From Microbotryum violaceum (taxonomy: Eukaryota), in contig CDLV01000013.1 of NCBI GenBank assembly GCA_001244265.2, positions 992,001 through 1,056,000 on the forward strand: a stretch of DNA of 64,000 nt, in the 5' to 3' direction. Below are positions 27,660-35,572 of this stretch, one piece after another. How positions within the stretch are numbered: the stretch's first letter is position 1; the number at the start of each line of letters is the position of its first letter. The notes under the pieces were generated by a model. That model worked only from the letters and a program-made list of their open reading frames with translations, had not been told where the DNA came from and ran no database searches. The translations under genes were made by a program, and so were the position numbers.

Positions 27660-28610
27660 GAGGATGAGTCTGCATCACACGCGCACGAGGTGTCACCCCC
27701 AGCGGACTCTCCTTGAAACTAAACCCACGATTCTGGTGAGCCCGTAATGACTTCTTCACGTTGGCTGGCGTACTTCTGACATGGAAGGCTTCTCCGCGCT
27801 TGCGCAGATCCATCATCGCAGAACGGGCCCGGTCAGCGATCAGCGCCTTCGCTTGCGCGGATCCTCCCGAGCTCTGCGTGCTCTCTCCTTCCTCTCTTTC
27901 TCACTCCCTCACTCTCATCGGGGCCAATCCCACAAACTTCCGATTTATTTTAGGTTTCGCGGCGGCTACGATTCACAATTAATGTGTATTTTCTTATACT
28001 TCGTCTGCTGGGCAGGTCCTCCTTTTTACGCGTCCCCAGTGTATTAACTCGGTTCGACCTGAGCTACTCATCTGTTGTCTGCGGTGCTTATGATCGCTCG
28101 AGATCCAGCCGTTCCTTTTGTGATGCCAACGTGCTTTTCTCATCGACGCGCCACCCGGGAGAGAAGGGATCGATATGAGGGAAGCGGGTCCTCATTGACA
28201 TGGTGAGTGTAACGGGAGGTGAGAGATGGTGCCGTATCTGCTACAGCCGCAGATCTACCAGTTCCCCGTTCTTCGGGTAAACGTGCACTCGCTCGCACAT
28301 CGACTCTTCTGCCCCGAGAACAGGCTCCGGCTTAGCGTGGCGTGCATTGTGTGGTTGCGGAGGGACCTGTTTGTAGTATACGGCGTTTGTCGATCTTGGG
28401 CTTTCTCGACGCCGCGCCGCCCAATTCTTGCGAGCTCCTGAGCCTTGAGGTCACGGACTACCTCTCTAACGCGATCATCTATCACAATCGAACGGTCCGA
28501 CGTCGATCTCCCACATCACACTTGGCCCGCGAACCTGCCCTCGCCGAAACTGGTGCAACGGGGACGATGCGACCCCCAGAGGAAAGCGAAACGAAACCAT
28601 CCATTTTGGG

Positions 28611-28848
28611 CGATTCCAGTCAATCCTCAGCTGACGACAGCGACAGTGACAGTGACAGTGAAAGCGAGTTCGAAAATGTCGCGATCGACCGTCGAAGAGC
28701 ACTCATACGACCGGTCGCGTTCCGATGCGAGCCATGTATGGCCGTCCAGAGCCTGATAGCTCTTCGATGGTCGATCGCGACATCTTCAAACTCGCTCTCA
28801 CTGTCACTGTCGCTGACGCTGTCGTCAGCCGAGGATTGACTGGAATCG
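28611..28848. repeat. Inverted repeat with 90-bp arms (28611-28700 and 28759-28848) and 58-bp spacer
   Basis: Arms align with 7 mismatches in 90; both read as an acidic peptide DSSQSSADDS(D/V)SDSDSESEFE(N/D)VAID. Confidence 0.95.
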
Positions 28849-28930
28849 GCCACATTGGGCTCGTCAGAGTCGGAGTCGGACGAAGGGGTTTGGGGCACGG
28901 GCATGCGCCGCTTTCTCTTCCGAGTCGGGC

Positions 28931-30473: not shown

Positions 30474-32892
30474 TCAAATTCCCCCAAAAACATCCCCATC
30501 GTCTTCATCAAAGTTCTCCTTGAACTCGTTACTGAAGGCGCCGCAATCGGTAGTGTCGACGGAATGATGACTCAGATCATCGCTCGAATGAGCACTGGTG
30601 TCAAGAAGGGCGTCATGATCCGTGGTGATGTCGTCCGACTCTCCGACCATCCCATCATTGATGCAGTCACGGTCTGGCCATGTGTGATCCGGCAAGCCAC
30701 CCGCTCTGGTTCGTTGAAAAACATCAACGTCGTCGGTGCACCACATTCGGAGCTCAACCCACTCCTCCATTTGCGGTTCGCCGGTTTGCCGGGTGCATTC
30801 CCACAGGTGATCTAGGCCGCTCTTCGAAAACCATCGGCGCGCAATAGTTCTAAGACGCTCTTCTTCATAGCAACCCCCCCCCCCTGAAATGAAATGATCC
30901 CGGGATCGTCCCATTTCGTAGGTTTTTTTTGGGGGTTTTTTTTTTGCTATGTTCTTGCTCGAGCAGCATCATCGCAGAGTCATCATGCTCATCTAGTTGG
31001 AGTAATTGCTGGCGAACTTGCTGAAACCTCTTGCGACGGCTTATCAGCCACCGTCCAATGCGACGCACTTCCCGTCCTGTATGATAGGATAACCCGTTTA
31101 GCAATCACAGACAGTCGGGTCAACGCATTATTGGGTTCGGGTGACCCGACACCAGCAGCACCAGGGTACCTTCTCGCCCGCTTCAGTCGATCCGTCGATC
31201 AAAGCTTGCTCGTTTCGAAACGTGTCTGGTGGCAGGAATAACGCTGGACGTGACTTGAGAGGATCAGCTTTTGCCCGTCGATGCTGAAAATTGCCGTCGA
31301 CAGCAATGATGACATCGAGGTCATTCTCGCTCTTGCCGGCTTCATCGATCCCAGGGCCAAAACATGCCGGACAAACGTCGGCCAGACGCTCGCGCGGGGA
31401 GAGGCCGAGAATTTCGGCGGTCAAAGTTGCCTGCAGCTGTTGCATAAATCGATATTCATCCATTGCAAGATGCTGACGCATGGTTGGACCCTGGGAAGCT
31501 TCCAATATTTTCTGTAGGAAACAGTGAATGTTTCCGGCCTGTCCCTGTCCCAGAGCCCACCTTGTTAAAAGGATCCTCCGAGGATATTTCAGAGGACCCA
31601 AAGAAAACGAGCGCTGCGGACATGCCATAGATACCAAAAGGATCTACCCCCAGTAGGTGTCGACATATTCGATCGTGCGAAAGGTGAATGCGGTGATGCC
31701 TTCTCTTTTTCGGATTGAAGATGACGACGTCGGGAGAAGACCGTGAGCTGCCAGGGTTTGGATCTCGGAATAGCATGGGCAGTATCGTAGTTCTCGCATG
31801 CCTGCTCATGGTTGGGGGATATCATATCAGTCCAGGACGATAGCGTAGGGGTGACTGACAAAAGATGTGCAACAGAAGCACCTGCCTGCAAAGAACAGGT
31901 CGAAAACCCGGACCTTTCTGGTGACTCGGCGTTCATGACATGCGTCGCACCACTCCTCGTCGTCCGGGGAAGGGACAAACCCGCTCTGTCGAAGCACTTT
32001 TGTGGCCTTTTTCTTCTCGGGTGCGTCGACGGCGGTCGTTAAGGGTGGCGTGCAGGTGCTCTCCGGTCGTCGAACAGCAACCTCTCATCAACAGGTACGC
32101 CTGGAAAAGTTTAGGTCGTTGTGACGGCCTAGTCTCAGCTTCGGCCCTCGCAGTCCGGCGACGATTGCGCTGCTTCTTGGCGTTCCTCTCGATCCGCAAT
32201 CGCTTAAGTGAAGAGGGCGCTTGGTCTTGAGAAGCACCGTCTGGGTGGAATGGCGAATGCTCCGGTCCAGATGAGTATTCACCGCCGAAATCGCGACCGA
32301 AGTCGTAGTCGGGCTCAAAGTCGGGCGCGCTGTGGGGCTCGAAGTCGTGCTCGAAGCCACCGGTCTCGGTGTTTAGAGGCCACGCCGTTACGTCATCGGC
32401 AATGTCAGTCCAAGGCTCGGACGATGAATTGTGGAGGCCGGCAATGGATTTCTCCGAATGCTCCTTCCGACGACGCGTTGACCTCTGGACCGATGGTGAT
32501 GGGGGAGGGCTCGGCTGACGTTTCGGACGCCTCTTCGTCGGAGAGCGGAAAATACCGAAACTGAAGCCGAACGTCTTGTCGAACAGCTCGCTATCCGGGG
32601 ACAACGATGGCTCCCTTTTCCGTACTCGCTTGGTCCATAATCTCCTCCTCTTCTTCTTCTTCGTCTTCGCCTCTTCCTCTGTTCCCACCGACGTCGTGGC
32701 CCCGTTCTCGATCGTGTCCTTGTTGCTGGTCACCTTCTTCCTCCTCCTCCTCACGGTCGTGCGCTTCTTGCGCTTGGTCTTGTCAGTGCGTTTTCCCTTC
32801 TGTGTTCCGACTGGCGATGTTGATCTAGTTGTAGAGGTGGTGGTGTGTGTGGTAGGATGTCCATGCTTGAAGCGATGGGTGCAAGCCTGCAA
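30474..32892 (-). mobile_element. Decayed Kyakuja-Dileera-Zisupton (KDZ) transposase with CxC1-like region
   Basis: LSPRERLADVCPACFGP...LDVIIAVDGNFQHRR is the KDZ signature. Basic low-complexity N-terminus, Cys/His-rich segment at ~31900-31600, and C-terminal RRIGRWLISRRK; frameshifts, homopolymer runs and apparent loss of much of the catalytic core. Confidence 0.85.
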
Positions 32893-33140
32893 GGCCTTGG
32901 GTGGAGGGAAGTGGGGGGAACCCGTGGTGCTGAGGCAGATGGACCATTAGCGGGGATAAGTAGCAAGTGCCCGAATTAGTGACCACTTTTGCCTCCGGGG
33001 GCTTGGGGTCGGCAGGGCAACGGTGCACCTAACCCGTACCAACGTTTCCCTGGACCAAATCCCCAAAAAGCTCCCTAAACTCGCCGCGCGCGGGGTAGCA
33101 TATTTGTTAGGTTTTTTTTGACCCACATAGGAGCGCATAG

Positions 33141-33593
33141 GTGCTCAAGTCCTGATCGCCACCCTGATCTCCCTCTCTCCCTCCCTCCCTTTCCCCCATC
33201 GCCTCGCAGAAAACAAGTCACTCTATACCTCGACCTCGTTTCATCCTACGCCTGCCCCGTTCTCCCCCTGCTGGCAATCCTCCTCGAGGACGACGCCTTT
33301 GAGAGCACCGCCCAACTCGACCGCCTCGCCACACTGCGCCTCGACAAGCCCGTCCCCCTCCCTGCGTCCCGGCGTGCTCGACCGCTACGTCTTTCGCGCG
33401 TCGGAACGTGGGAACACCAGCACGTCTAGCGGCACTCCTTGTGACTGCGAGTGGTTCGGCCGGACGCTCCAGGCCCTCGGCACAGCGCTCGGCTAGGTCG
33501 TCATCCACACGTTGTACGCCACAGCGCGGACTTGACGGCGTACGAGCGCTATTACCAGAGTCGCCAGACCAAGGTCAACACCTAGGCGCTCGC
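33141..33593 (+). pseudogene. DUF3435-like tyrosine recombinase fragment, copy A (disrupted)
   Basis: ACPVLPLLAILLEDDAFE...YVFRASERG...RTLQALGTALG*VVIHTLYA[~70-nt deletion]...AYERYYQSRQTKVNT*AL; frameshift near 33360. Confidence 0.75.
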
Positions 33594-34167
33594 CGGTGGT
33601 CGAGTCGCTCGATCCTCGACGAAGCCGCCAACGTCGCCGAGCGCCTGAGTGTCGACCTTGGTACGATGGCTCTGGTAGTAGCGCTCGTACGCCGTCGACT
33701 CCGCGCTATGTCCCATGAGCAGGCGGCGCTCCGCGAGGGTGACCTCAGGGACGTTGATGGCGTTCGCAGGGAAGCGTCGCCAAGCGTACAAGGTGTGGGT
33801 GACGACCCAGCCGAGCGCCGTGCCGAGGGCCTGGAGCGTGCGGCCGAACCACTCGTAGCCACAGGGGGTGTCGCCCGTCGTGCTCGTTTTTCCACGTTCC
33901 GACGCGCGAAAGACGTAGCGGTTGAGCACGCCGGGACGCAGGACGAGGGGGACGGGCTTGTCAAGGCGCAGTGTGGCGAGCCTGTCGAGTGGAGGTGGCG
34001 ACTCGAAGGCGTCTTCCTCGAGGAAGATGGCCATCAACGGGAGAATGGGGCAAGCGGAAGGCGAGGCGAGGTCGAGGGAGAGGGTCACTTGTTTTCTGCG
34101 AGCCGAGGGGGGAAAGGGAGGGAGGGAGGGAGAGGGAGACCAGGGTGGCGATTAGGACTTGAGGCAC
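33582..34167 (-). mobile_element. DUF3435-like tyrosine recombinase catalytic C-terminal fragment, copy B (5'-truncated, frame open)
   Basis: ACPILPLMAIFLEEDAF...YVFR...CGYEWFGRTLQALGTALGW..THTLYAWRRFPANAIN...AERRLLMGHSAESTAYERYYQSHRTKVDTQAL: Y-x-x-RR, MGH and catalytic-Tyr region in the spacing typical of DUF3435. Confidence 0.8.
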
Positions 34168-34906
34168 AGAGAAAGTGAAAGGCACGAGATCGCTCTCGAG
34201 CCTCACTGATTCCGACTCCAAACTTCGAGCCATGTGCATCGCATGGGCAGGCAAGGTACCTTGAGTAGGGGGCACACGCTCGGCCTCATCGAGCACGGAC
34301 CTCGTCAGTGATGACGTGGCGCAAGCTTGAAGGGTCATACATCTGCTTTTCTTCGATGGTCGATCCATACCTTCTTTTGCTCTGTCTGGCAAACTCAATC
34401 CTTGCGTCCCCTACACCAATCCCGACCCGTGCTTGCTTGCAGTGCTCGCCATCCTTGAGTTGGTTGGCCACCATCTCCATCTTTGTTTTCTGGCTCGTTT
34501 TGTATCTCTCTTGTCCCTTTCTATGTTCTTTTCAGATCTGTGTTCAACACCGTGAACAGGAAGGCGCTTGGCAGTGTTCCAAAAATAAAATCAGATAGGG
34601 ACACGAGCGTTCGGCAAGGAGCTCAAAATTTAAAGTCCAATCGAAGTGCACGGACCCAGCTCGGCGTCGCGCACAAATGAGACACCGGAGAAACGCGAGA
34701 GCGCGCGGATCTCGAAACCTGGCGGACTACTCGACTACACACTGGCTGACTCACCCGCGGCGGCAGACAGACCACCCACGCTGAGGTATTGCGACCTCCG
34801 CCGTCGGAACCCTCCAACATGAAGTTTGCATCGAGTTGCTTCACGCGTTCTGACTTGCACATCCTGTCCTCCCGCCGTGCCGACGTCGCCAAGGGGCATG
34901 TTGCAC

Positions 34907-35153
34907 TCATGTAAGGTCAATCTCTTGGATGAGCGTGATCTTGCCCTTGGAACTCGGCAGCGCTTTCGTTGGCCGATCAGGCGAATCCGCGCTGGACGAG
35001 TTGCCTTGGATGTCGAGTAGATGCGAGAGCCCTGATGCTGCTGACCGTCGAGGTTGTGCCATGGCCGGGTCTTCGTCGCCGGCTTGTTCGACGCCCCTCT
35101 TGGAGTTTTGACCGACTTCTGGGTGCCCTTCGCTGTCGTCTTCGTCATCGTCT

Positions 35154-35200
<47 letters not shown>

Positions 35201-35572
35201 GCCACTGTCGTTGTCGTCACTGTCGCCGTCGTCGCTGTCACTACTATCACTCGATTCGATCTCTTCCAATACGACCACTTCCTCCTGCTCTTCGTGGCCC
35301 TCGTCCCCGTCGACCAGGCCAGCTCGCTCGTCTCCATCACGCGCACTCAAGCTCGTCCCATCCTTCTGTTGTTGCTCCAAGCGCATATTGGCGTCCCTGA
35401 TCTGAGGCAAGAAGGCGTGCAACCTGTTCAATACGTCGCTGCCTTGGGTCGGCAGGTCAAAGAGGAACGGTGGTGGGACAGGCATCGTTCGTGCTTCGAG
35501 TCGTTCTCGTTCGGGACTCGTCGTGGAGGGAGAAGAGGCTGAGGTGGCATCTGTGACTTGAGTGGAAGCCAT
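34907..35572 (-). CDS. NOPCHAP1/C12orf45-like (DUF4598) box C/D snoRNP assembly chaperone
   Basis: Single ORF with SDVLNRLHAFLPQIRDANMRL, a poly-Asp tract from a (GATGAC)n repeat at ~35143-35200, and C-terminal LIQEID. Confidence 0.8.

What the first reader, a model, noticed from the sequence alone, without database searches (positions are those of the whole stretch)
33141..34167. ~1-kb fold-back built from two DUF3435-like (Starship-captain family) tyrosine recombinase fragments in a basidiomycete
Seen: two homologous arms lie tail-to-tail (33141-33593 on +, 34167-~33637 on -) with a ~43-nt spacer, and both start at the same point, GTGC(C)TCAAGTCCT. Copy B keeps TLYAWRR...LMGH...YERYY; copy A has lost the RR-to-MG segment and has stops. 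Many arm differences are synonymous (AGC/TCG Ser, CGC/AGG Arg, CGG/CGC, ACG/ACC), so the arms look like two family members that diverged while functional, not a fresh local duplication. Established: DUF3435 recombinases mobilise Starships, which have been characterised in Pezizomycotina. Inference: this genome has or had a multi-copy DUF3435 element family, possibly an undescribed basidiomycete YR element, and the hairpin could be a dsRNA/siRNA source against it.
Basis: partly seen in the sequence, partly recalled or inferred. Interest (0 to 1): 0.75.

Follow-up and report, generated by a model that had tools for sequence, protein, structure and literature searches.

The report
Dead recombinase-gene fragments forming a fold-back
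Two broken, inverted pieces of a transposon recombinase gene sit back to back in a patch of transposon debris in an anther-smut fungus; they are an ordinary relic, not a working mobile element.

Summary
The fold-back is real. Arms 33141-33600 (+) and 34167-33631 (-) are 393/459 nt identical and are the longest inverted repeat in the window. Contigs of two public runs bridge its centre.

Arm B is an open 189-codon frame that hits Pfam DUF3435 (E 1.6e-16, profile 102-246 of 418). It keeps the Y..RR, MGH and Y motifs but lacks the upstream SRPGE and KGxR motifs. Arm A has three stops, a 2-nt deletion and a 73-nt deletion.

Arm differences are biased to third codon positions: 33 of 62, against about 20 expected, P<=0.0003. 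dN/dS is about 0.3. The differences therefore trace to once-functional gene lineages.

The locus is conserved in Microbotryum silenes-dioicae. Further fragments exist in M. lychnidis-dioicae and M. saponariae. No full-length copy was found in the window or among close database proteins. The nearest intact relatives are from other basidiomycete yeasts and smuts.

DUF3435 recombinases in basidiomycetes are already in print. This is a transposon relic and a new member of a known kind. The siRNA idea remains untested.

The parts
33141..33600 (+). Arm A: decayed internal fragment of a DUF3435 tyrosine-recombinase gene. It has 3 in-frame stops, a 2-nt deletion near 33360 and a 73-nt deletion after 33519.
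   Evidence: Alignment to arm B; codon-aligned reading; tblastn frames 1/2/1. Its ORF 33131-33496 gave no Pfam hit.
33141..33209 (+). Non-coding-like 5' segment of arm A. It runs GT...CT-rich...CAG and is intron-like. Homology to DUF3435 proteins starts just after it, at KQVT.
   Evidence: Sequence. Only 4 mismatches in 69 aligned nt against arm B. Protein alignment A1 shows where homology begins. The intron reading is inference.
33596..33634. Centre or spacer of the fold-back (39 nt by the repeat finder; 33601-33630 in the MAFFT alignment).
   Evidence: The centre is bridged by contigs X1 record 4 and X11 record 12.
33631..34167 (-). Arm B: better-preserved fragment of the same gene family. 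It covers the part from just after the KGxR motif to just past the catalytic-tyrosine motif.
33582..34151 (-). Open frame of 189 codons through arm B and the spacer into the reverse of arm A. Residues 33-170 match DUF3435 profile positions 102-246 of 418. The annotated 150-aa gene model P0001 is its residues 40-189.
33711..33783 (-). Segment of arm B (WRRFPANAINVPEVTLAERRLLMG) that has no counterpart in arm A.
   Evidence: Arm pairings 33519/33784 and 33520/33710; alignment
34096..34167 (-). Non-coding-like 5' segment of arm B (72 nt, GT...CTAAT...CT-rich...CAG).
   Evidence: (exon-like start index 72)
34175..34223 (.). Context: a piece of about 49 nt from a repeat that occurs in many contexts in the runs laid. 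It abuts arm B. On the minus strand it encodes LESESVRLESDLVPFT, a peptide also found at the C-terminus of the M. saponariae fragment P0002.
   Evidence: Loose ends at 34175, 34208 and 34223/4, and the very high summed depth of bin 34106-34222. P0002 sequence.
32117..33140 (.). Context: the left flank is repeated DNA, with summed contig depth 10-50 times that of the right flank in run X1 and many variant contigs. It abuts arm A. A KDZ/CxC-like ORF lies further left at 31128-31643 (-).
   Evidence: the tool warns that depth is not a copy number; ESM Atlas lead, score 0.96. No Pfam hit.

Best explanation
The 1,027-bp fold-back is a non-functional relic. It consists of two inverted, tail-to-tail internal fragments of a DUF3435-type tyrosine-recombinase (YR) gene, the enzyme family that moves Starship and related fungal DNA elements. 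It lies in a patch of transposon debris between ordinary host genes of a Microbotryum (anther-smut) genome.

Each arm holds only the stretch from just after the KGxR motif to just past the catalytic-tyrosine motif. The first catalytic arginine (SRPGE motif), the core-binding domain and the C-terminal zinc-finger part are missing, so neither arm can encode a recombinase. Arm A is also broken by stops and deletions.

The differences between the arms were largely fixed while the sequences still served as genes, so a DUF3435 element family was once active in this lineage.

How the palindrome arose is inference. The reading I favour is a single inverted duplication of one fragment, with later patchy gene conversion from diverged paralogues. 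The alternative is a rearrangement that joined two diverged copies.

The structure predates the split from M. silenes-dioicae. No present function is shown.
For: Family. Arm B scores above the Pfam DUF3435 cut-off. Of the 24 proteins scanned, 23 hit DUF3435 (3 of them Microbotryum fragments); P0005 alone had no hit. A model of relative P0012 (pLDDT 85.4, pTM 0.80) matches Cre and other YRs (Foldseek E 4.2e-6, probability 1.00, TM 0.53/0.64).

Fragment status. In alignment A1 the invariant Y..RR, G-H and Y columns are present in arm B, but the SRPGE and KGxR columns lie upstream of where the arms start. tblastn of all 49 stored proteins against the window gave 54 hits. 53 fall inside the fold-back, and the 1 outside is a gene-model exon of P0003. 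No N-terminal piece was found. Arm A has stops and deletions.

Selection signature. dN/dS is 0.29-0.31, with 13/14/33 differences by codon position. Binomial P is 4.5e-4. Neutral simulations give a mean of 19-20 third-position differences and about 12 silent codons, against 33 and 23 observed, with P<=0.0003 and P<=0.002.

Other copies.
- P0043 and P0003, adjacent genes g04971 and g04972 of M. silenes-dioicae, match arm B (145 of 150 aligned residues, including the read-through of the centre) and arm A (121 of 121).
- MVLG_00684 matches arm A's shifted frame across the 2-nt deletion at 85/95, and matches arm B at 98/112.
- The M. saponariae protein P0002 is 83% identical.

Relic context. The flanks are repeated DNA. 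The window is otherwise host genes: ARS2, I/LWEQ, multicopper oxidase, PCI.

No close full-length protein. Only 2 of 42 hits reach E<=1e-30, and both are short.
Against: Origin is unresolved.
- Shared ends, a 5' segment with only 4 of 69 mismatches, and blocks of 2-7% against 24-27% divergence do not fit two independently decayed copies.
- Third-position excess is seen even in the low-divergence blocks, at 3/5/13. That does not fit a purely neutral post-duplication history.

Arm B is still an open frame of 189 codons, is annotated as a gene (P0001), and sits almost at the base of the Microbotryum trio in the tree (end branch 0.018). Some constraint or very recent inactivation cannot be excluded.

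Absence of intact copies rests on protein databases and on one 64-kb window. The genome itself could not be searched.

The tool states that contig depth is not a copy number.
Confidence: 0.75

Rival explanations
1. Plain local inverted duplication of one dead fragment, followed only by neutral decay. No second gene lineage is involved.
For: The arms share both outer and inner ends. The spacer continues arm B's frame with faint likeness to the downstream part of MVLG_00684 (VG..E.RA, seen by eye). A second small fold-back with a similar 48-nt spacer lies 4.5 kb away. The 5' 69 nt are nearly identical.
Against: Neutral placement of the same 62 substitutions gives about 20 third-position and about 12 silent changes. 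The observed counts are 33 and 23, reached in at most 1 of 3000 and at most 6 of 3000 runs per setting. Control frames give dN/dS of 1.7 and 0.87. Ser AGC/TCG and Arg CGC/AGG switches are visible.
Confidence: 0.08
2. The fold-back is a working hairpin-RNA gene. Read-through transcription gives a dsRNA of about 450 bp, which Dicer cuts into siRNAs that silence DUF3435 elements.
For: The strand folds into one long hairpin, MFE -877.7 kcal/mol. M. lychnidis-dioicae has an RdRP, two Argonautes and a Dicer, all expressed (Perlin 2015, passages). The locus is conserved in M. silenes-dioicae.
Against: No transcript or small-RNA data are available. No intact target was found. Conservation between two very close species is expected for neutral DNA. 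Arm mismatches (14%) and the 73-nt bulge are unselected-looking.
Confidence: 0.07
3. The 1,027-bp unit is itself a non-autonomous foldback or TIR-type transposon whose long terminal inverted repeats were built from a captured recombinase fragment.
For: It has sharp identical termini, GTGC(C)TCAAG...CTTGAG(G)CAC, and lies inside a transposon-rich patch.
Against: There is no convincing target-site duplication; at most AG/AG. There is no second copy in the window. Summed contig depth over the interior is at the level of the unique right flank in X1 and X11 (a weak hint only). MVLG_00684 extends further 3' than the arms, so the unit is not shared.
Confidence: 0.05
4. The fragments are part of a live or recently live Starship or Crypton-like element present in this window.
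For: DUF3435 is the Starship captain family.
Against: The window holds no N-terminal half and no zinc-finger part. Neighbours are conserved host genes and other transposon debris. Both arms lack the first catalytic arginine.
Confidence: 0.02

Closest known systems
Starship 'captain' tyrosine recombinases (Pfam DUF3435, PF11917), including the unnamed 'Family 11' that starfish found enriched in basidiomycetes
   Same: Same Pfam family. Same conserved Y..RR / MGH / Y motifs. A relative's model has the Cre-like two-domain fold. Several relatives carry C-terminal C2H2 zinc fingers, as reported for the Enterprise captain. The starfish paper also found that basidiomycete YRs have no identifiable element boundaries.
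   Different: Here there are only internal fragments, with no cargo, direct repeats or captain position. In my 39-row tree, 8 of 9 ascomycete-labelled rows fall in a separate clade with 95% SH-aLRT support, and all 9 basidiomycete-labelled rows fall outside it. Placement in Family 11 could not be tested because no reference sequences were at hand.
Kirc homologues / Enterprise-like elements in basidiomycetes (Vogan et al. 2021) and Starships called in Tremella fuciformis (2026)
   Same: These are DUF3435 genes outside Pezizomycotina: putative homologues in 10 basidiomycete genomes (passages), and eight Starships with captain, DRs and TIRs in Tremella (passages).
   Different: Those are full genes or elements in Agaricomycotina. 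This is a dead fragment pair in Pucciniomycotina. My searches found no paper reporting it for Microbotryum (listings only, passages read for PMC12210899 alone).
CryptonF DNA transposons (first found in the basidiomycete Cryptococcus; Goodwin et al. 2003, recalled and cited)
   Same: YR-encoding DNA transposons of fungi, small and cargo-less. They are used as the outgroup of Starship YRs.
   Different: Gluck-Thaler 2022 states that DUF3435 captains form a clade distinct from Crypton YRs (passage). I had no Crypton sequence to compare.
Inverted-repeat transposon relics that yield hairpin RNA and siRNA (general RNAi biology, recalled)
   Same: Long, imperfect inverted repeat of transposon coding sequence in a species with RNAi genes.
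   Different: No evidence of transcription or small RNAs here.

Membership tests
Pfam DUF3435 (PF11917) | Score above the family's gathering cut-off | tested here: met
   Arm B scores 60.7 bits against a cut-off of 25.8, E 1.6e-16, but covers only profile positions 102-246 of 418. Arm A's ORF gave no hit.
Functional tyrosine recombinase | Complete catalytic set R-K-H-R-(H/W)-Y (pentad named in Vogan 2021) in one intact frame | tested here: not met
   Arm B has the Y..RR, G-H and Y columns. The SRPGE (first Arg) and KGxR (Lys) columns lie upstream of the arm start and occur nowhere in the window. Arm A also lacks RR..MG and has stops.
Tyrosine recombinase fold (for the gene family the fragments come from) | Two-domain Cre/XerD-like fold | tested here: met
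   The model of relative P0012 has pLDDT 85.4. Its top Foldseek PDB matches are Cre, IntI, Tn1549 Int, XerA/XerH, lambda Int and Flp; 44 matches have E<=0.001. By sequence profile alone the YR hits were weak: XerA E 0.099.
Starship element | Full-length captain at the 5' end of a large cargo-carrying insert bounded by direct repeats (with or without TIRs) | tested here: not met
   No full captain, no boundaries and no cargo. The flanks are other repeats and host genes.
Starship YR superfamily / Family 11 (starfish classification) | Placement inside the reference YR tree rooted with CryptonF | not testable with these tools
My tree only shows grouping with other basidiomycete proteins.
CryptonF | Crypton-type YR, distinct clade from DUF3435 | not tested
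   No Crypton sequence was in hand. The Pfam assignment to DUF3435 argues for the Starship-type side.
Hairpin-RNA / siRNA locus | One transcript across both arms, and Dicer-sized small RNAs from both | not testable with these tools
   No listed run is on record as RNA.

The most novel reading that the evidence does not exclude
The fragments are the last traces of an undescribed, vertically inherited basidiomycete lineage of DUF3435 elements. Its intact, zinc-finger-bearing members survive in Microbotryomycetes, Cystobasidiomycetes, Exobasidium and Ceraceosorus. The fold-back, kept in at least two Microbotryum species with one arm still an open frame, is retained because its hairpin transcript feeds RNAi that keeps the family extinct.
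Probability: 0.07. Interest if true: 0.6.

Novelty: new member of a known kind. Interest (0 to 1): 0.27.

Why it matters
- It adds Microbotryum (Pucciniomycotina) to the few basidiomycetes known to carry Starship-type recombinase genes.
- Its nearest relatives are other basidiomycete proteins rather than the ascomycete ones sampled. That bears, weakly, on the open question raised in the starfish paper: did basidiomycete DUF3435 genes arrive by descent or by transfer?
- At least five annotated 'hypothetical proteins' in three Microbotryum species appear to be pseudogene fragments.
- As a single locus it is an ordinary transposon relic.

Tried and rejected
- Whole-genome search: no genome is held for this window. 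Copy number in the genome could not be counted directly.
- The search for homologous proteins 'longer' with arm B gave no hit (the tool calls this weak evidence). The same tool with P0005 found only P0005 itself.
- RNA evidence: no RNA holder was listed. Run X20 is only guessed to be RNA. It holds a 154-nt identical contig at 33631-33784 at depth 2.3. This is not usable as evidence of expression.
- Run X22 covers the flanks (to 33131 and from 34224) but nothing in between, and no contig joins across. No conclusion on absence can be drawn.
- Contig depth as copy number: the tool says it is not one. I use it only as a hint.
- A cluster of 6 differences in X1 record 5 (33713-33908): 2 of the 3 listed match arm A, and by eye all 3 give MVLG_00684-like residues. 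This could be ectopic conversion or a collapsed assembly bubble. Unresolved.
- RIP-like hypermutation as the source of divergence: only 5 of 66 differences lie at TCG/CGA, and transitions to transversions are 38:28. Rejected as the main cause.
- Target-site duplication around the fold-back: at most AG/AG. Rejected.
- Pfam on the left-flank ORFs gave no hit.
- The profile search of PDB sequences gave only weak YR hits. The fold search settled the question.
- Earlier findings of this scan: nothing for this genome or this sequence.
- Polarising the arm A/B amino-acid differences against the other copies by script was not done; see steps_to_tell. The A-like and B-like mosaic of MVLG_00684 therefore rests and on reading by eye.
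- Supplements of the starfish paper, which list the basidiomycete YRs, were not opened. They may already include Microbotryum.

Full report
**1. The observation**

The window at 33141-34167 holds a large imperfect palindrome. The repeat finder reports four collinear inverted pairs:
- 33144-33177 / 34130-34163
- 33168-33360 / 33945-34137
- 33354-33519 / 33784-33949
- 33520-33595 / 33635-33710

They are 82-94% complementary, with 39 nt between the innermost arms. A global alignment of 33141-33600 with the reverse complement of 33631-34167 gives 393 identities in 459 aligned positions (85.6%). It also shows a 73-nt gap, a 2-nt gap and smaller gaps in arm A.

Both arms start with GTGC(C)TCAAGTCCT, and homology stops there. 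blastn and tblastn find no further copy in the 64-kb window. The only other inverted repeat of 60 nt or more within 3 kb in the window is a small one at 28601-28858.

The structure is not an assembly artefact. Contigs from two public runs of two studies cross the centre without a difference: X1 record 4 at 33395-33742 and X11 record 12 at 33382-33921. One of these runs may be the assembly's own source. An independently assembled relative also has both arms (section 4).

**2. What the arms encode**

Arm B lies in an open frame of 189 codons, 33582-34151 on the minus strand. It matches Pfam DUF3435 at E 1.6e-16 and 60.7 bits (cut-off 25.8), but only over profile positions 102-246 of 418. Arm A's longest frame gives no Pfam hit.

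Read codon by codon against arm B, arm A has three in-frame stops and a 2-nt deletion. It lacks the 73 nt that encode WRRFPANAINVPEVTLAERRLLMG in arm B.

I aligned arm B with 11 longer relatives and the M. saponariae fragment (alignment A1). The invariant columns are Y..R(R), G-H and a later Y, and arm B has all of them. The SRPGE and KGxR motifs of the family lie upstream of the point where the arms begin. tblastn with all 49 stored proteins found no such upstream piece anywhere in the window: 54 hits, 53 inside the fold-back, and the one outside is a gene-model exon of P0003. Neither arm can therefore encode a recombinase.

The gene family itself is a tyrosine recombinase family. I checked this on the 397-aa relative P0012. 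Its AlphaFold model (mean pLDDT 85.4, pTM 0.80) finds Cre as best PDB match (Foldseek E 4.2e-6, probability 1.00, TMq/TMt 0.53/0.64). Integron integrase, Tn1549 integrase, XerA/XerH, lambda integrase and Flp follow. Sequence-profile matches to solved recombinases were only weak: XerA E 0.099 and an integrase at 0.23. The C-terminal part of the profile matched C2H2 zinc fingers at E 1.4e-4.

**3. How the arms differ**

There are 66 differences, 38 transitions and 28 transversions.

In arm B's frame, dN/dS by Nei-Gojobori is 0.31 over 143 codons, or 0.29 from the KQVT start over 127 codons. Differences by codon position are 13/14/33. The two other frames give 1.7 and 0.87.

GC is 0.65/0.50/0.82 by codon position, so I tested a composition-aware null. 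I placed 62 substitutions at random, drawn from the observed base spectrum or the base-plus-CpG spectrum, with either arm as the source. This gives on average 19-20 third-position changes and about 12 silent codons. The observed values are 33 and 23. They were reached in at most 1 of 3000 and at most 6 of 3000 runs per setting.

RIP-like TCG/CGA changes are few, 5 of 66.

Divergence is very uneven, however. Blocks of 2-7% alternate with blocks of 24-27%:
- Low: 33141-33182, 33318-33405, 33451-33519
- High: 33228-33317, 33406-33450, 33558-33600

The first 69-72 nt of each arm are not homologous to DUF3435 proteins. They look like an intron: GT, a CTRAY-like CTGAT/CTAAT, a CT-rich tract, then CAG. 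This is my reading. These segments differ at only 4 of 69 aligned sites, far less than the silent-site divergence (pS about 0.3).

**4. Other copies and relatives**

An exhaustive HMMER search of 1.84 billion representative proteins found 42 hits at E<=1e-3. Only two reach E<=1e-30:
- the window's own 150-aa gene model, P0001
- a 190-aa protein of Microbotryum saponariae, P0002, 83% identical

The word-indexed search added three more:
- P0043 and P0003, adjacent genes g04971 and g04972 of M. silenes-dioicae
- P0044, which is MVLG_00684 of M. lychnidis-dioicae p1A1 Lamole, on another contig

P0043 equals arm B at 145 of 150 aligned residues. This includes the read-through of the spacer into the reverse of arm A. 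P0003 equals arm A's frame at 121 of 121 aligned residues, apart from a 16-residue expansion of the CT-rich tract, and starts in the window's left flank. The whole fold-back is therefore shared with M. silenes-dioicae.

MVLG_00684 is a third fragment. It follows arm A's shifted frame across the 2-nt deletion (85/95). In its C-terminal part it is as close to arm B (98/112), and it runs further 3' than either arm. This mosaic suggests exchange between copies. I could not test this on DNA.

Whether MVLG_00684 lies in the window's own genome I did not establish.

No close full-length protein exists in these collections. Named longer relatives are at 30-37% identity and come from:
- Exobasidium rhododendri
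- Ceraceosorus guamensis
- Microbotryomycetes sp. JL221
- Phenoliferia
- Rhodosporidiobolus
- a Cystobasidiomycete
- more distantly, Pezizomycotina: Pestalotiopsis, Sclerotinia, Elsinoe, Trichophaea, Pyronema, Phylliscum

Of 24 proteins scanned, 23 hit DUF3435; P0005 did not. Several also show zinc-finger matches.

I built a quick maximum-likelihood tree of 39 rows: arm B plus every stored hit whose best match to arm B covered at least 100 positions of arm B. P0001, P0003 and P0043 were left out as duplicates of the arms. The results:
- The three Microbotryum fragments form one group (SH-aLRT 99).
- They join the unnamed P0005 (92) and then an Exobasidium-containing group (84).
- 8 of 9 ascomycete-labelled rows sit in a separate clade (95).
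- All 9 basidiomycete-labelled rows lie outside that clade.

The region is short and the sampling is biased to arm B's hits, so this is only a hint of a basidiomycete lineage.

**5. Surroundings**

The window is ordinary fungal gene space: ARS2, I/LWEQ, multicopper oxidase, PCI, bZIP and a response-regulator protein.

The fold-back lies at the right edge of a patch without recognisable host genes, roughly 27.7-34.2 kb. The contigs laid show the following.
- The left flank, 32117-33169, and a piece of about 49 nt at 34175-34223 occur in many variant contexts. Summed depths are 10-100 times the right flank. Loose ends lie at 34175, 34208 and 34223/4.
- The fold-back interior is at the level of the unique right flank: X1 125-460 against 213-225, and X11 2.9-6.9 against 5.3-9.7.

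The tool warns that depth is not a copy number, so this is a hint only.

The 49-nt piece encodes, on the minus strand, the peptide that ends the M. saponariae gene model P0002. This explains that odd resemblance.

An ORF at 31128-31643 (-) has CxC/KDZ-transposase clusters as its nearest ESM Atlas neighbours (score 0.96). It has no Pfam hit.

**6. Mechanism**

Shown:
- The arms are dead fragments.
- The family is a YR family.
- The differences carry a selection signature.
- The structure is older than the split from M. silenes-dioicae.

Inferred:
- The arms share both their outer and inner ends, while the third copy extends further 3'. One event most simply made the palindrome.
- The selection-type differences, their patchiness, the near-identical non-coding 5' part and the mosaic third copy are then best explained by later gene conversion from diverged paralogues. 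The alternative is that the event joined two already diverged copies.

I cannot separate these two readings without the DNA of the other loci.

If transcribed through, the locus would fold into one hairpin, MFE -877.7 kcal/mol. M. lychnidis-dioicae has expressed RNAi genes (Perlin 2015, passages). There is no RNA evidence and no known intact target.

**7. Comparison with what is known**

DUF3435 genes are the captains of Starships. The literature on basidiomycetes, read as passages unless stated:
- Vogan 2021 noted homologues in 10 basidiomycete genomes.
- Gluck-Thaler 2022 found no Starship-like regions in Basidiomycotina that met their criteria.
- The starfish paper reports few basidiomycete YRs, enriched in an unnamed Family 11, none with boundaries (section 25 read whole; passages).
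- A 2026 paper calls eight Starships in Tremella fuciformis.

My searches for Microbotryum with Crypton, Starship or tyrosine recombinase returned 4 papers each (the sets overlap). From their listings these are co-mentions only. I read passages for PMC12210899 alone.

The recombinase family in basidiomycetes is therefore known. This locus is a new, dead member in a new host genus.

**8. Verdict**

The locus is a transposon relic of modest interest.

Noticed in passing
window 28601-28858: A second, smaller fold-back: 105-nt arms, 89% complementary, 48-nt spacer. It lies 4.5 kb from the first, in the same gene-poor patch. It and the DUF3435 fold-back are the only inverted repeats of 60 nt or more within 3 kb in the whole window. 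The similar spacer size hints at a shared palindrome-forming process.
   Followed up: partly
window 31128-31643 (-), and 32117-33169: The ORF with CPACFG...DGNFQHRR has CxC1/CxC2/KDZ-transposase clusters of basidiomycetes as nearest ESM Atlas neighbours (score 0.96) but no Pfam hit. The DNA to its right, up to arm A, occurs in many variant contigs at high summed depth in all four runs. It is probably a high-copy KDZ-type transposon remnant.
   Followed up: partly
window 34175-34223: A piece of about 49 nt from a repeat found in many contexts. Loose ends on its left are diverse. On its right they agree on one continuation that the window lacks. On the minus strand it supplies a good GTGAGG splice donor, which the M. 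silenes-dioicae gene model P0043 appears to use.
   Followed up: partly
window 33713-33908 (arm B), run X1: In run X1 the only contig over this stretch has 6 differences in 196 nt, while the contigs on both sides are identical to the window. Two of the three listed changes equal arm A's bases. By eye all three give the residues of MVLG_00684. This is either ectopic conversion between copies in that strain or a collapsed assembly bubble.
   Followed up: partly
window 33165-33197 and 34105-34142: The CT-rich tract at the start of each arm is a variable microsatellite-like stretch. The M. silenes-dioicae model of arm A has 16 extra residues here, and the read-laying tool skipped it as a repeat.
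   Followed up: no
P0009 (Ceraceosorus guamensis, 1476 aa): This relative matches arm B twice, at residues 238-347 and 1130-1289, and Pfam reports two DUF3435 stretches plus a zinc-finger match. It is either two recombinase copies fused in one gene model or a tandem pair.
   Followed up: no
window 35112-35240: A GTC/ATC triplet array of about 130 nt (12-nt register). On the minus strand it encodes a long Asp-rich run in an ORF with a weak Cwf15/Cwc15 match. Run X22 has a 42-nt length difference here.
   Followed up: no
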